From a virus (Duplodnaviria; Heunggongvirae; Uroviricota; Caudoviricetes): a stretch of 5,179 nucleotides of DNA. This document shows positions 32-825 of this stretch, piece after piece. The DNA lies in the IMG/VR virus record IMGVR_UViG_3300018486_000086; one strand, given 5' to 3'. The translations under genes and the position numbers were made by a program. Each line of letters starts with the position of its first letter. Within the stretch, counting starts at the first letter, position 1. A model generated the notes under the pieces. That model was not told the DNA's origin and did no database searches. It saw only the letters and a program-made list of their open reading frames with translations.

Positions 32-261
32 ACAAAACTGAAGAAGTATTCGACTTTAAACTTATTAGTCCCACAAAAGCCGAAAAACTTATCAAAAAGG
101 CCAGTCCGCGCCGTTGGTCAAAAGTCGAGGCACTGATAACACGAGCTGATGGTAAACCAACCGTCGTTCCCGAGTCAGACCCACGCCCCGCACTCAATAT
201 CAACCCTGTAAATGATTTCGACGACGTATCCGACGATACGCTAACCGCAGACCTCATCTGA
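32..261 (+). CDS. 3' end of an upstream gene, 5'-truncated by the adapter; hypothetical protein with acidic C-terminal tail, possibly the DUF2800-type nuclease that usually precedes DUF2815 SSB genes
   Basis: Frame 1 is open from the adapter junction to TGA at 259-261. It translates to ...KTEEVFDFKLISPTKAEKLIKKASPRRWSKVEALITRADGKPTVVPESDPRPALNINPVNDFDDVSDDTLTADLI*. It is co-oriented with and 15 nt upstream of the next gene. The product identity is inferred only from typical gene order. Confidence 0.45.
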
Positions 262-276
262 TTTAAGGAAATACCC

Positions 277-825
277 ATGAAACTGAAGCTGAACAATGTT
301 CGTCTGGCCTTCCCGTCTCTGTTTGAAGCTAAAACTGTAAACGGCGAAGGCGATCCGCGTTTCTCCGCAGTATTTTTAATGTCTCCCAAACACCCACAAC
401 TGGAAGAAATCCGTAAAGCTATGAAGCAGGTAGCGAAGGAAAAATGGGGAGAGAAGTGGGAGCCCATTTATAACCAACTGGAGAAAAAACTCAATCTGTG
501 CCTGCATGATGGTGATGAAAAAGCAGAGTATGAAGGCTTCCCCGGTAATTTCTTCCTGAATGCTGCTAACAAAGCGCGCCCAGCTGTTCTTGATCGCGAT
601 CGTTCGCCACTAATTCAGGCTGATGGACGTCCCTATGCAGGGTGCTATGTAAACGCCGTTATCGATATCTGGGCACAGGACAATAATTTCGGTAAACGCA
701 TTAATGCCTCACTCGGCGGAGTCCAGTTCCTGCGAGACGGCGATGCATTCGCTGGCGGCGGAGTGGCAAGCGCTGACGATTTCGACGATATCAGCGAAGG
801 TGCTGATGCTGAAGCACTGATTTAA
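277..825 (+). CDS. Phage single-stranded DNA-binding protein, DUF2815-like, with acidic C-terminal tail
   Basis: 182-aa ORF with AAGGAA Shine-Dalgarno at 264-269, 7 nt before ATG 277. The N-terminus MKLKLNNVRLAFPSLFEAK resembles the conserved start of DUF2815 phage SSB proteins. The C-terminus DDFDDISEGADAEALI is an SSB-like acidic tail. It sits directly upstream of a DNA polymerase, as in known DUF2800-DUF2815-PolA phage modules. Confidence 0.7.
   Translation: MKLKLNNVRLAFPSLFEAKTVNGEGDPRFSAVFLMSPKHPQLEEIRKAMKQVAKEKWGEKWEPIYNQLEKKLNLCLHDGDEKAEYEGFPGNFFLNAANKARPAVLDRDRSPLIQADGRPYAGCYVNAVIDIWAQDNNFGKRINASLGGVQFLRDGDAFAGGGVASADDFDDISEGADAEALI

What the first reader, a model, noticed from the sequence alone, without database searches (positions are those of the whole stretch)
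211..825. Two adjacent proteins end in near-identical acidic C-terminal tails
The upstream protein ends NDFDDVSDDTLTADLI and the SSB ends DDFDDISEGADAEALI, 15 nt of intergenic sequence and one gene apart. They share DFDD-[VI]-S and the terminal L-I, and the DNA shares an 11-nt GATTTCGACGA stretch. In phage T7 the acidic C-terminal tails of the SSB gp2.5 and the helicase-primase gp4 both dock onto the DNA polymerase, and E. coli SSB uses its acidic tail as a partner-recruitment peptide. A shared tail here suggests both proteins compete for or hand off to the same partner, plausibly the polymerase encoded at 1108-3204.
Basis: partly seen in the sequence, partly recalled or inferred. Interest (0 to 1): 0.55.

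Follow-up and report, generated by a model that had tools for sequence, protein, structure and literature searches.

The report
Nuclease and SSB share docking tail
In this E. coli prophage a DNA-cutting enzyme and the neighbouring single-stranded-DNA-binding protein end in the same two-part acidic peptide, and related phages keep the two tails matched as they evolve, which points to one shared docking site in the phage's DNA replication and recombination machinery.

Summary
"Near-identical" overstates it: 7 of 16 residues match, concentrated in two short motifs.

The upstream gene is a DUF2800 PD-(D/E)XK nuclease. The downstream gene is a T7 gp2.5-type SSB (Pfam Enc34_ssDNA-bd). Both end in a bipartite tail:
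- motif 1, D-F-D-D-[VI];
- a spacer;
- motif 2, an acidic residue followed by L-I at the C-terminus.

Comparative evidence:
- In 65 non-redundant loci the two tails of one locus resemble each other more than tails from different loci (0 of 20,000 permutations).
- The penultimate residue switched L to F in both proteins on the same tree branch four times.
- Codon choice shows no gene conversion.
- Polymerase, primase, SNF2 helicase and VRR-NUC of this lineage never carry the tail.
- Distant phages have other tail versions, again shared. In Enc34 the primase, exonuclease, SSB, SNF2 helicase, ORF3 and small terminase all end in an acidic run, five of them in ...EV.

The shared-partner idea is therefore well supported. 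The polymerase as that partner remains untested. The SSB's own ssDNA groove is the better-documented receptor for motif 1, because the equivalent Enc34 residue sits in that groove in crystals.

This is a new variant of the T7 gp2.5/gp4 tail principle. I found no description of it in the papers searched.

The parts
34..261 (+). 3' end of the DUF2800 / PD-(D/E)XK nuclease gene: last 75 codons plus stop. The gene is cut by the contig end and adapter. Full length is 433 aa.
   Evidence: Translation. The full gene in L002:6929-8230 hits Pfam DUF2800 at E=1.2e-109 and PDDEXK_1 at E=7.5e-10. RefSeq annotates it as 'DUF2800 domain-containing protein'.
211..258 (+). Nuclease C-terminal tail, NDFDDVSDDTLTADLI
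   Evidence: Conserved in the adjacent nuclease across loci.
214..228 (+). Motif 1 of the nuclease tail, D-F-D-D-V (acidic-aromatic-acidic)
   Evidence: An acidic-aromatic-acidic motif lies within the last 28 residues in 48 of 68 nucleases. It is kept even where motif 2 is lost, as in Acinetobacter and Orbaceae.
250..258 (+). Motif 2 of the nuclease tail, D-L-I at the free C-terminus
   Evidence: It co-varies with the SSB C-terminus.
262..276 (+). 15-nt spacer between the two genes, with the Shine-Dalgarno-like AAGGAA at 265-270
   Evidence: Read directly from the sequence.
277..825 (+). T7 gp2.5-type single-stranded-DNA-binding / annealing protein (DUF2815, Pfam Enc34_ssDNA-bd), 182 aa
775..822 (+). 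SSB C-terminal tail, DDFDDISEGADAEALI. It follows the glycine-rich linker AFAGGGVASA.
   Evidence: The tail has pLDDT 55-66 against more than 90 for most of the core. Conserved in 120 homologues.
778..792 (+). Motif 1 of the SSB tail, D-F-D-D-I. F169 is at least 90% conserved.
   Evidence: F169 aligns with Enc34 ORF6 Y188. Y188 is among the last traceable residues, which insert into a neighbour's ssDNA-binding sheet.
814..822 (+). Motif 2 of the SSB tail, A-L-I at the free C-terminus
1108..3204 (+). Family A DNA polymerase with a weak, below-cutoff match to the 3'-5' exonuclease domain and no match to a 5' nuclease domain. It is the conserved tail-less component and a candidate receptor for motif 2.
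   Evidence: Pfam DNA_pol_A E=2.4e-14. Found in 73 of the 75 representative loci and never carries the tail. RefSeq starts the gene 11 codons later.

Best explanation
The two tails are two copies of one intrinsically disordered, bipartite docking peptide. Selection keeps them alike because both must fit the same phage-encoded receptor site or sites.

Anatomy:
- Motif 1, D-F-D-D-[VI], is acidic with one aromatic residue, an ssDNA-like surface.
- A variable acidic spacer follows, with 9-14 residues after the aromatic in most nucleases and 12-15 in most SSBs.
- Motif 2 is an acidic residue, then L or F, then I, V or A carrying the free carboxylate.

Working model:
1. Motif 1 binds the basic, aromatic-lined ssDNA groove of the gp2.5-like SSB.
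2. On the SSB this gives self-inhibition or SSB-SSB contacts that ssDNA displaces.
3. On the nuclease it tethers an SSB/annealase molecule by its empty groove, so ssDNA exposed by resection is handed straight to the SSB. This is exonuclease-annealase coupling, as in lambda Exo/Red-beta, achieved by a different device.
4. Motif 2 docks on a tail-less replisome partner, most likely the family A polymerase encoded 280 bases downstream, as the T7 gp2.5 and gp4 tails dock on gp5. Nuclease and SSB would then compete or alternate there. The polymerase shows no match to a 5' nuclease domain, so a tethered 5'-3' nuclease would be useful.

Shown here: conservation of the tail, its specificity to these two proteins, correlated evolution, and maintenance at the protein level.

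Inferred: the identity of the receptors and the hand-off.
For: Conservation:
- The SSB tail motif is present in all 120 best homologues, of 62-99% identity.
- The adjacent nuclease carries the matching tail in E. coli, Pectobacterium, Mixta, Xenorhabdus, Serratia, Ralstonia, Thiobacillus and other loci.

Matching within loci:
- End-anchored BLOSUM62 similarity over the last 3-6 residues is 6.6-8.4 for same-locus pairs and 2.7-4.0 for cross-locus pairs, in 65 non-redundant loci. No permutation out of 20,000 reached the observed value.
- Examples: ..ADLI/..EALI, ..AAESLI/..DAESLI, ..EDLV/..DDLV, ..AAEFI/..AGEFV, ..DDMFV/..ADVFS, ..PVLF/..AELF.

Correlated change:
- By parsimony on a tree of the protein cores, 4 of 5 L>F changes at the nuclease's penultimate residue fall on branches where the SSB also changes L>F. 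The tree has 8 such SSB branches among 132. By my hypergeometric estimate this is about 3e-5.
- Out-of-sample prediction from the SSB alone: 2 of 3 F-type SSBs had an F-type nuclease next door.

Not gene conversion:
- At identical residues in the last six positions, 52 of 160 codons are identical, against 68 expected from codon usage.
- In the window the shared Ser is TCC in one gene and AGC in the other.

Specificity:
- Polymerase, SNF2, VRR-NUC, primase and the 300-aa protein carry both motifs in 0 cases. Other ORFs do so in 2 of 1775.

Generality:
- In 15 distant phages the cognate nuclease and SSB tails match better than non-cognate pairs (26.1 against 19.1, 0 of 50,000 permutations). DSS3-P1 has ..DVDDLLG/..GDDDLLG, PBC1 has DFEGEDFDV/DFEDEDFDI, GaryLarson has LEQEFAN/LEDEFAD.
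- In Enc34 and SAP012 the primase, exonuclease, SSB and SNF2 helicase, plus TerS and ORF3 in Enc34, share an acidic tail; all but the SNF2 helicase (..DDEED / ..DDEEE) end in ..[DE]EV. Polymerase and VRR-NUC do not.

Receptor is phage-encoded:
- Phages of the same hosts (Escherichia, Salmonella) use different tail versions.

Groove as the receptor for motif 1:
- F169 aligns with Enc34 Y188.
- The end of the traceable Enc34 tail inserts into the neighbour's seven-stranded sheet and buries 842 square angstroms (PMC5686142).
- E. coli SSB's DFDDDIPF peptide contacts its own OB domain through F171 and D173 at the ssDNA site. T7 gp2.5's tail also competes with ssDNA (PMC3936761).

Polymerase as a receptor:
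- The tails of T7 gp4 and gp2.5 bind basic patches on gp5 (PMC12593628; PMC12339929).

Exonuclease-annealase pairing:
- gp2.5-like genes cluster with RecE-like exonuclease genes, and one such protein showed single-strand annealing activity in vivo (PMC2896510).
- The duf2800-gp2.5-polA module has been described (PMC8093625).
Against: - No interaction was measured or modelled. The AF2 model of the SSB leaves the tail at pLDDT 55-66, so no confident docking in cis is predicted.
- The scan for core positions in polymerase, SSB, nuclease, SNF2 or VRR-NUC that switch together with the L/F tail type found none shared by all lineages. Neither receptor is identified by co-variation.
- Matching is not absolute. 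One F-type SSB sits next to an L-type nuclease (L175).
- Acinetobacter, Pasteurellaceae and Orbaceae nucleases stop just after motif 1 while their SSBs keep motif 2.
- In Jersey-like and Dhillon-like phages the SSB tail ends in a basic stretch, and the nuclease tail resembles the helicase tail instead.
- L and F are both bulky hydrophobic residues, so part of the L/F co-variation could be tolerated drift.
- Permutation tests treat related loci as independent. The branch-based count rests on only 4-5 events.
Confidence: 0.7

Rival explanations
1. Pure T7 model. Both tails, in full, dock on basic patches of the phage family A polymerase. SSB and nuclease compete or hand off there, and the SSB groove plays no part.
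For: The tails of T7 gp2.5 and gp4 both bind gp5 basic patches. The polymerase was found in 73 of the 75 representative loci and is the only large conserved replication protein that never carries the tail in any lineage examined. It shows no match to a 5' nuclease domain, so a recruited 5'-3' nuclease would make sense.
Against: No evidence from this protein family. No polymerase column tracks the tail type. The only structural data for a DUF2815 tail place the motif-1 equivalent in the SSB groove. In Enc34 the small terminase and a 124-aa protein share the tail, which is hard to explain as polymerase docking.
Confidence: 0.3
2. Mimicry of the host SSB C-terminus. Motif 1 (DFDD[VI]) copies the E. 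coli SSB C-peptide DFDDDIPF, so that the phage proteins capture, or compete for, host SSB-interacting proteins.
For: Motif 1 matches the first five or six residues of DFDDDIPF (for the host sequence). A Chi-like phage protein, SAP012 orf68, ends in EWDDDIPF, so exact mimicry does occur in this phage group.
Against: The tails lack the terminal I-P-F carboxylate. From my own knowledge, not tested here, that is the main determinant of binding to host partners. Motif 1 is internal. The tails vary by phage lineage among phages of the same host and co-vary within a phage. That is not expected for a receptor as conserved as the host SSB interactome.
Confidence: 0.1
3. No shared partner. Each tail is an independent acidic DNA mimic that regulates its own protein's DNA binding. 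The likeness comes from composition plus co-inheritance of two adjacent gene ends.
For: Removing the Enc34 ORF6 tail changes its ssDNA/dsDNA discrimination. Acidic tails are common in DNA-binding proteins. The two tail-coding segments lie about 560 bp apart (211-258 and 775-822) and are inherited together.
Against: Linkage explains co-inheritance but not mutual similarity. Same-locus pairs are more alike than cross-locus pairs, although both kinds of pair have the same divergence times. Specific hydrophobic anchors, including identical four-residue ends such as ESLI, change in parallel.
Confidence: 0.08
4. The hydrophobic C-terminus is a host-directed signal: a ClpXP-type C-terminal degron, or a beta-clamp-binding motif (QL[SD]LF-like ..DLI / ..SLI).
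For: From my own knowledge only: nonpolar C-terminal residues with a free carboxylate resemble ssrA-like degrons, and [SD]-L-[FI] resembles the last three positions of the clamp-binding consensus.
Against: The tails have no conserved Q and are strongly acidic. The versions in other phages of the same hosts (..DEEV..DDLEA) fit neither signal. Motif 1 is left unexplained.
Confidence: 0.04
5. Chance resemblance, or a recent local duplication with no function.
For: An 11-nt identical stretch exists.
Against: The tail is conserved in both families at down to 52% SSB identity and beyond. Codon choices differ, with Ser TCC against AGC, and there is no excess of shared codons.
Confidence: 0.01

Closest known systems
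Bacteriophage T7 replisome: acidic C-terminal tails of gp2.5 (SSB) and gp4 (helicase-primase) docking on basic patches of gp5 polymerase
   Different: Here the second tail-bearer is a PD-(D/E)XK nuclease, not the helicase-primase. The DUF5906 primase of this prophage has no tail. The likeness is much more extensive, with two discrete motifs. The terminal residue is aliphatic (I or V), not Phe. No receptor has been shown.
Enterobacter phage Enc34 ORF6 (PDB 5ODJ/5ODK/5ODL), the type member of Pfam Enc34_ssDNA-bd
   Different: Its tail version is ..AYDEDEDEWDEDEV. In Enc34 an acidic tail of this kind is also on the primase, SNF2 helicase, ORF3 and small terminase. The Enc34 paper, searched for these terms, has no mention of ORF5 or DUF2800 and one of a nuclease, in the list of replication-module genes; no shared tail is described.
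Bacterial SSB C-terminal peptide (E. coli DFDDDIPF) as a hub for partner proteins
   Same: It is an acidic-aromatic peptide at the end of a disordered linker. It binds both the SSB's own OB fold and partner proteins. Motif 1 is nearly identical to DFDDD-I.
   Different: The polarity is reversed. In E. coli the partners carry pockets and only SSB carries the peptide. Here a partner enzyme carries the peptide as well. The ending is different (LI, not IPF) and the SSB fold is different.
Two-component phage recombinases (lambda Exo/Red-beta, RecE/RecT)
   Same: Adjacent genes encode a 5'-3' exonuclease-family protein and a single-strand annealing protein. gp2.5-like proteins cluster with RecE-like exonucleases, and one showed single-strand annealing activity in vivo.
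   Different: The protein families are unrelated. In those systems coupling is through folded domains, not a shared tail (my own knowledge). Nuclease activity and polarity of DUF2800 were not tested here.

Membership tests
T7-type SSB (gp2.5 / DUF2815 / Pfam PF10991 Enc34_ssDNA-bd) | Sequence match to the family profile | tested here: met
   PF10991 E=7.6e-44, 149.9 bits against a cut-off of 26. PDB 5ODJ E=1.9e-23.
T7-type SSB (gp2.5 / DUF2815 / Pfam PF10991 Enc34_ssDNA-bd) | gp2.5-like OB fold with a long helix | tested here: met
T7-type SSB (gp2.5 / DUF2815 / Pfam PF10991 Enc34_ssDNA-bd) | Disordered acidic C-terminal tail | tested here: met
   The last 16 residues contain 7 D/E. Tail pLDDT is 55-66.
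T7-type SSB (gp2.5 / DUF2815 / Pfam PF10991 Enc34_ssDNA-bd) | Binds ssDNA and anneals strands | not testable with these tools
   Shown only for homologues: Enc34 ORF6 and the phage phi12 protein.
DUF2800 / PD-(D/E)XK nuclease | Profile match | tested here: met
   PF10926 E=1.2e-109 and PF12705 E=7.5e-10 on the full-length protein from L002. Only the last 75 residues lie in the window.
DUF2800 / PD-(D/E)XK nuclease | Nuclease activity and its polarity | not testable with these tools
   No solved relative was detectable by sequence.
T7-like shared-tail docking system (gp2.5 and gp4 tails on gp5) | Two or more replication proteins of one phage carry similar acidic C-terminal tails with a hydrophobic end | tested here: met
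T7-like shared-tail docking system (gp2.5 and gp4 tails on gp5) | The second tail-bearer is the helicase-primase | tested here: not met
   The primase (DUF5906) ends ..SCEILQSGL and the SNF2 helicase ends ..AMKKRGIA. The tail-bearer is the nuclease. The feature is met in Enc34, SAP012 and phiD12.
T7-like shared-tail docking system (gp2.5 and gp4 tails on gp5) | The tails bind basic patches of the phage polymerase | not testable with these tools
The co-variation scan was uninformative.
T7-like shared-tail docking system (gp2.5 and gp4 tails on gp5) | The tails are functionally interchangeable | not testable with these tools
   Needs genetics.
Bacterial SSB-Ct interactome peptide | Sequence ends in D-D-D-I-P-F with a free carboxylate | tested here: not met
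   The tails end ..ADLI and ..EALI. The DFDD motif is internal.
Beta-clamp-binding motif | Q-L-[SD]-L-F or QxxLxF | tested here: not met
   No Q at the required position in either tail. The consensus is taken from my own knowledge.

The most novel reading that the evidence does not exclude
The nuclease-SSB pair is the minimal form of a private tail code. In the whole duf2800-gp2.5-polA phage group, each lineage wires its replication, recombination and even packaging proteins together with one lineage-specific C-terminal peptide, and that peptide co-evolves with a phage-encoded receptor. Enc34 has up to six such proteins: primase, exonuclease, SSB, SNF2 helicase, ORF3 and small terminase. The result would be replisomes that do not cross-talk with co-resident phages or with the host SSB interactome. 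The same peptide would also double as an ssDNA mimic that opens the SSB groove for hand-off.
Probability: 0.3. Interest if true: 0.75.

Novelty: new variant of a known kind. Interest (0 to 1): 0.6.

Why it matters
- **The module is very common and barely studied.** The duf2800-gp2.5-polA module is among the commonest replication modules of tailed phages and prophages. tblastn found 1292 phage records with the SSB, and 159 of 5426 complete E. coli genomes carry this prophage region. How its proteins assemble is unknown.
- **It offers a direct handle for experiments.** A short, co-evolving peptide shared by the nuclease and the SSB allows peptide pull-downs, tail swaps and L/F exchanges.
- **It suggests how resection is coupled to SSB loading** in gp2.5-type recombination systems, which are of interest for recombineering.
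- **It extends the T7 principle** that replisome parts are held together by interchangeable acidic tails to a nuclease and, in Chi-like phages, possibly to a whole set of proteins.

Tried and rejected
1. **Convergent-substitution scan.** I looked for alignment columns in polymerase, SSB core, nuclease core, SNF2 and VRR-NUC that differ in all F-type lineages from a conserved L-type residue. No column was shared by all lineages, and the few partial hits were scattered. This is uninformative about the receptor.
2. **AF2 of the full SSB with 114 homologues.** I wanted to see whether the tail docks in cis. The tail has pLDDT 55-66 with two short helical turns, so there is no confident docking. The tool returns no contacts.
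3. **A fused construct** of nuclease C-terminus, native spacer and tail-less SSB, intended for AF2.
4. **Gene conversion as the cause of matching.** Rejected, because shared codons are fewer than codon usage predicts.
5. **Other proteins of this prophage carrying the tail.** Primase, SNF2, the 300-aa upstream protein, VRR-NUC and polymerase do not.
6. **Sequence search of the nuclease against the PDB.** No hit.
7. **Literature.** Searches for DUF2800/DUF2815, for gp2.5-like with Cas4-like, and for acidic tail with exonuclease, mimic and replisome found the module and the SSB structure. In the hit lists, and in the three papers I opened on this module (PMC5686142, PMC8093625, PMC2896510), I saw no description of a shared nuclease/SSB tail. 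The library lacks most subscription-journal papers, so this does not prove absence.
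Full report
**What the window is**

Bases 1-31 and 5159-5179 are Illumina adapter, so the contig ends are technical. The remainder is 99.5% identical to three Escherichia phages (vB_EcoM-606R2 and relatives). It also matches prophages in 159 of 5426 complete E. coli genomes, 37 of them over at least 80% of the window. In the E. coli chromosome examined (CP032145) the prophage lies next to yfhL.

The window covers the replication module. Its genes, in order, are:
- the 3' end of a DUF2800 / PD-(D/E)XK nuclease gene (to 261; full length 433 aa);
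- a DUF2815 / Enc34_ssDNA-bd protein (277-825);
- a small minus-strand ORF in a variable slot (870-1085);
- a family A DNA polymerase (1108-3204);
- a CAP12/Pycsar-type TIR-like protein (3269-4030);
- two small ORFs;
- a VRR-NUC protein (4460-4744);
- a truncated ORF.

Outside the window the same prophage encodes a DUF5906 primase, a 300-aa protein upstream of the nuclease, and an SNF2 helicase.

**The observation**

The nuclease ends NDFDDVSDDTLTADLI and the SSB ends DDFDDISEGADAEALI. Seven of 16 residues are identical, and they sit in DFDD[VI]S and the terminal LI. The 11-mer GATTTCGACGA occurs only at 214-224 and 778-788. The genes are 15 nt apart.

The tails are two short shared motifs separated by a dissimilar acidic spacer.

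**Identity of the two proteins**

The upstream protein matches DUF2800 (E=1.2e-109) and PDDEXK_1. The literature describes a conserved duf2800-gp2.5-polA module (PMC8093625). It also reports that gp2.5-like genes cluster with RecE-like exonuclease genes, and that one such protein showed single-strand annealing activity in vivo (PMC2896510).

**Conservation**

All 120 best SSB homologues (62-99% identity) keep [DE][DE]F[DE][DE][ILVM], then a spacer, then an acidic residue followed by [LF][IVA] at the C-terminus. F169 is at least 90% conserved.

I fetched 80 loci from one-genome-per-species bacterial contigs and 80 from viral contigs. In each I located the nuclease and the SSB by phmmer. The nuclease is adjacent and upstream in 156 of 162 loci and carries the same kind of tail.

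**Matching within loci**

The tails differ between lineages but match within a locus.

| Lineage | Nuclease end | SSB end |
|---|---|---|
| E. coli type | ..TADLI | ..AEALI |
| Mixta / Erwinia | ..EAAESLI | ..ADAESLI |
| Betaproteobacteria | ..EDLV | ..DDLV |
| Serratia | ..AAEFI | ..AGEFV |
| Xenorhabdus | ..DDMFV | ..ADVFS |
| A Terrimicrobiaceae MAG | ..PVLF | ..AELF |

Other Xenorhabdus loci have ..ADLI with ..EALI.

Tests of this matching:
- **Permutation.** In 65 non-redundant loci, end-anchored similarity of same-locus pairs is 6.6-8.4 against 2.7-4.0 for cross-locus pairs. No permutation out of 20,000 reached the observed value. Linkage alone cannot produce this, because cognate and non-cognate pairs have the same divergence times.
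- **Branch counts.** By parsimony on a neighbour-joining tree of the two protein cores, both proteins change state on the same branch five times, and four of these are L>F in both. There are 6 nuclease-only and 9 SSB-only changes on 132 branches. Four of five nuclease L>F events coinciding with the eight SSB L>F branches has a hypergeometric probability of about 3e-5 by my calculation.
- **Out-of-sample prediction.** Of three F-type SSBs taken from the protein search, two had an F-type nuclease next door and one an L-type. An SSB ending ..EDLF sat beside a nuclease ending ..EDLI.
- **Codon choice.** At identical residues in the last six positions, 52 of 160 codons are identical against 68 expected. 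The shared serine in the window is TCC in one gene and AGC in the other. The match is therefore maintained at the protein level and not by gene conversion.

**Specificity**

Both motifs together occur in 39 of 68 nucleases and 55 of 68 SSBs. They do not occur in the polymerase, SNF2, VRR-NUC, primase or 300-aa proteins. They occur in 2 of 1775 other ORFs in the same loci. In this prophage, none of the other replication-module proteins examined (primase, 300-aa protein, polymerase, VRR-NUC, SNF2 helicase) shares the tail.

**Generality and what it says about the receptor**

tblastn found the SSB in 1292 phage records. In 15 distant phages the cognate nuclease and SSB tails are again more alike than non-cognate ones (26.1 against 19.1, 0 of 50,000 permutations). 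Examples:
- Ruegeria phage DSS3-P1: ..DVDDLLG and ..GDDDLLG.
- Bacillus phage PBC1: DFEGEDFDV and DFEDEDFDI.
- Paenibacillus phage GaryLarson: LEQEFAN and LEDEFAD.
- Stenotrophomonas phage AXL_1: GDFDV..DGEQSAD and NDFDSV..DGEQASG.

In Streptococcus phage phiD12 the D5-like primase (..DDDFLD) matches the SSB (..DDDFLN). In Jersey-like and Dhillon-like phages the helicase and nuclease tails match each other (..T[ED][GD]DL..).

In Chi-like phages the tail is on many proteins. In Enc34:

| Protein | C-terminal end |
|---|---|
| Primase | ..DPFDDEDEV |
| ORF3 | ..GEEEEV |
| Exonuclease | ..GAYDDEDEDDDEV |
| SSB | ..DAYDEDEDEWDEDEV |
| SNF2 helicase | ..IWDDEED |
| Small terminase | ..EADDDEV |

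Polymerase, VRR-NUC and large terminase have no such tail (SAP012 is similar).

Phages of the same hosts use different tail versions, while each phage's own proteins agree. The receptor is therefore most likely phage-encoded and co-evolving. The conserved tail-less candidates are the polymerase, VRR-NUC and the folded core of the SSB itself.

**Which receptor?**

There are two lines of evidence, and neither is decisive.

1. *The SSB groove.* In the HMM alignment to Enc34 ORF6, F169 of motif 1 aligns with Y188. The Enc34 paper reports that the last eleven residues are invisible. It also reports that the end of the traceable tail inserts into the seven-stranded sheet, the ssDNA-binding face, of a neighbouring molecule and buries 842 square angstroms. 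Similar contacts are seen in the other DUF2815 crystals and in T7 gp2.5. In E. coli SSB the peptide DFDDDIPF, whose first residues equal motif 1, contacts the ssDNA site of its OB domain through F171 and D173. The T7 gp2.5 tail competes with ssDNA (PMC3936761). Motif 1 therefore has a documented receptor type, the SSB groove.
2. *The polymerase.* In T7 the acidic tails of gp4 and gp2.5 bind basic patches on the polymerase. Here the polymerase is the conserved tail-less partner. This makes it the natural candidate for motif 2, which is disordered in the Enc34 crystal.

Nucleases that have lost motif 2 but keep motif 1 (Acinetobacter, Pasteurellaceae, Orbaceae) fit a model in which the two motifs have separable roles.

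My attempts to discriminate failed. No core column in any candidate tracks the L/F tail type. AF2 does not dock the tail confidently.

**Most likely mechanism**

The tail is a shared bipartite docking peptide.
- Motif 1 is an ssDNA mimic for the SSB groove. On the nuclease it would tether an SSB/annealase and pass resected ssDNA to it.
- Motif 2 is a C-terminal anchor for a tail-less partner, probably the polymerase, where nuclease and SSB compete or alternate.

Conservation, specificity, correlated evolution and protein-level selection are shown. The receptors and the hand-off are inferred. I put about 0.7 on a shared phage-encoded receptor, and roughly 0.4-0.5 each on the SSB groove and the polymerase. 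The two are not mutually exclusive.

**Rivals**

- *Polymerase-only docking* has no support from within this family.
- *Mimicry of the host SSB C-terminus* is contradicted by the missing IPF end and by lineage-specific variation among phages of one host.
- *Independent autoinhibitory tails* are contradicted by the parallel changes.
- *A degron or clamp-binding motif* does not fit the other tail versions.
- *Chance or recent duplication* is refuted by conservation and codon data.

**Comparison with what is known**

This works like the T7 gp2.5/gp4 tail system and like the bacterial SSB C-peptide. It is not a member of either.
- The second tail-bearer is a nuclease, and the primase of this prophage lacks the tail.
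- The peptide ends in L-I rather than F or IPF.
- Unlike the E. coli case, a partner enzyme carries the SSB's peptide rather than a pocket for it.

The papers I searched describe the gene module and the SSB structure, but I found no description of the shared tail in them. That library is incomplete.

**Verdict**

This is a real, conserved and co-evolving feature. It is a new variant of a known principle, of moderate to good interest, and directly testable with peptides and tail swaps.

Noticed in passing
window 1-31 and 5159-5179: Both ends of the window are Illumina TruSeq adapter sequence (ACTCTTTCCCTACACGACGCTCTTCCGATCT and AGATCGGAAGAGCGTCGTGTA). The contig ends are technical, and the first 10 'codons' of the upstream protein are not protein.
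   Followed up: partly
window 826-1107: The slot between the SSB and the polymerase is variable. Here it holds a 71-aa minus-strand ORF (870-1085) with no Pfam or PADLOC hit. The otherwise 99.5%-identical phages and E. coli prophages carry an unrelated 209-aa minus-strand gene there. An inverted repeat at about 831-852 follows the SSB stop codon (read); the terminator scan reported an overlapping stem-loop at 838-856.
   Followed up: partly
window 3269-4030: A CAP12/Pycsar-type TIR-like protein sits inside the replication module between the polymerase and VRR-NUC. It hits Pfam PF10137 at E=2.9e-31 and the PADLOC candidate defence family PDC-S35 at E=1.3e-108. The same arrangement occurs on an unrelated metagenome contig (L176).
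   Followed up: partly
window 4760-5158 (full gene L002:13142-14059): This truncated ORF, which looks AT-rich by eye (composition not measured), is the N-terminal part of a 305-aa protein with no Pfam hit. It has a weak PADLOC TIR-effector match (E=1.1e-6) and may be a second TIR-like gene in the module.
   Followed up: partly
window 4062-4260: RefSeq annotates a frameshifted ANR-family transcriptional regulator pseudogene here in the matching E. coli prophage.
   Followed up: no
L166:4177-4530 (Salmonella phage SAP012 orf68): A 117-aa protein just upstream of the DUF2800 nuclease ends in EWDDDIPF. Its last six residues are those of the E. coli SSB C-peptide, so it is a candidate mimic of the host SSB tail.
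   Followed up: no
L178 (Enc34): 10318-10893 (TerS) and 3681-4055 (ORF3): The small terminase and a 124-aa hypothetical protein end in ..DDDEV and ..EEEEV, like the primase, exonuclease and SSB of the same phage. No explanation offered so far accounts for a packaging protein sharing the replication tail.
   Followed up: no
window 136-210 and homologous positions in L003-L182: DUF2800 nucleases keep a conserved segment, G-K-P-T-[LV]-x-P-x-[ST]-D-x-R-P-A, immediately before the tail in the Proteobacteria, Firmicutes and Actinobacteria phages examined and, more loosely, in one Bacteroidota phage (Croceibacter P2559Y; Bacteroides BF1-3 keeps little of it). It looks like the fixed anchor from which the variable tail projects.
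   Followed up: no
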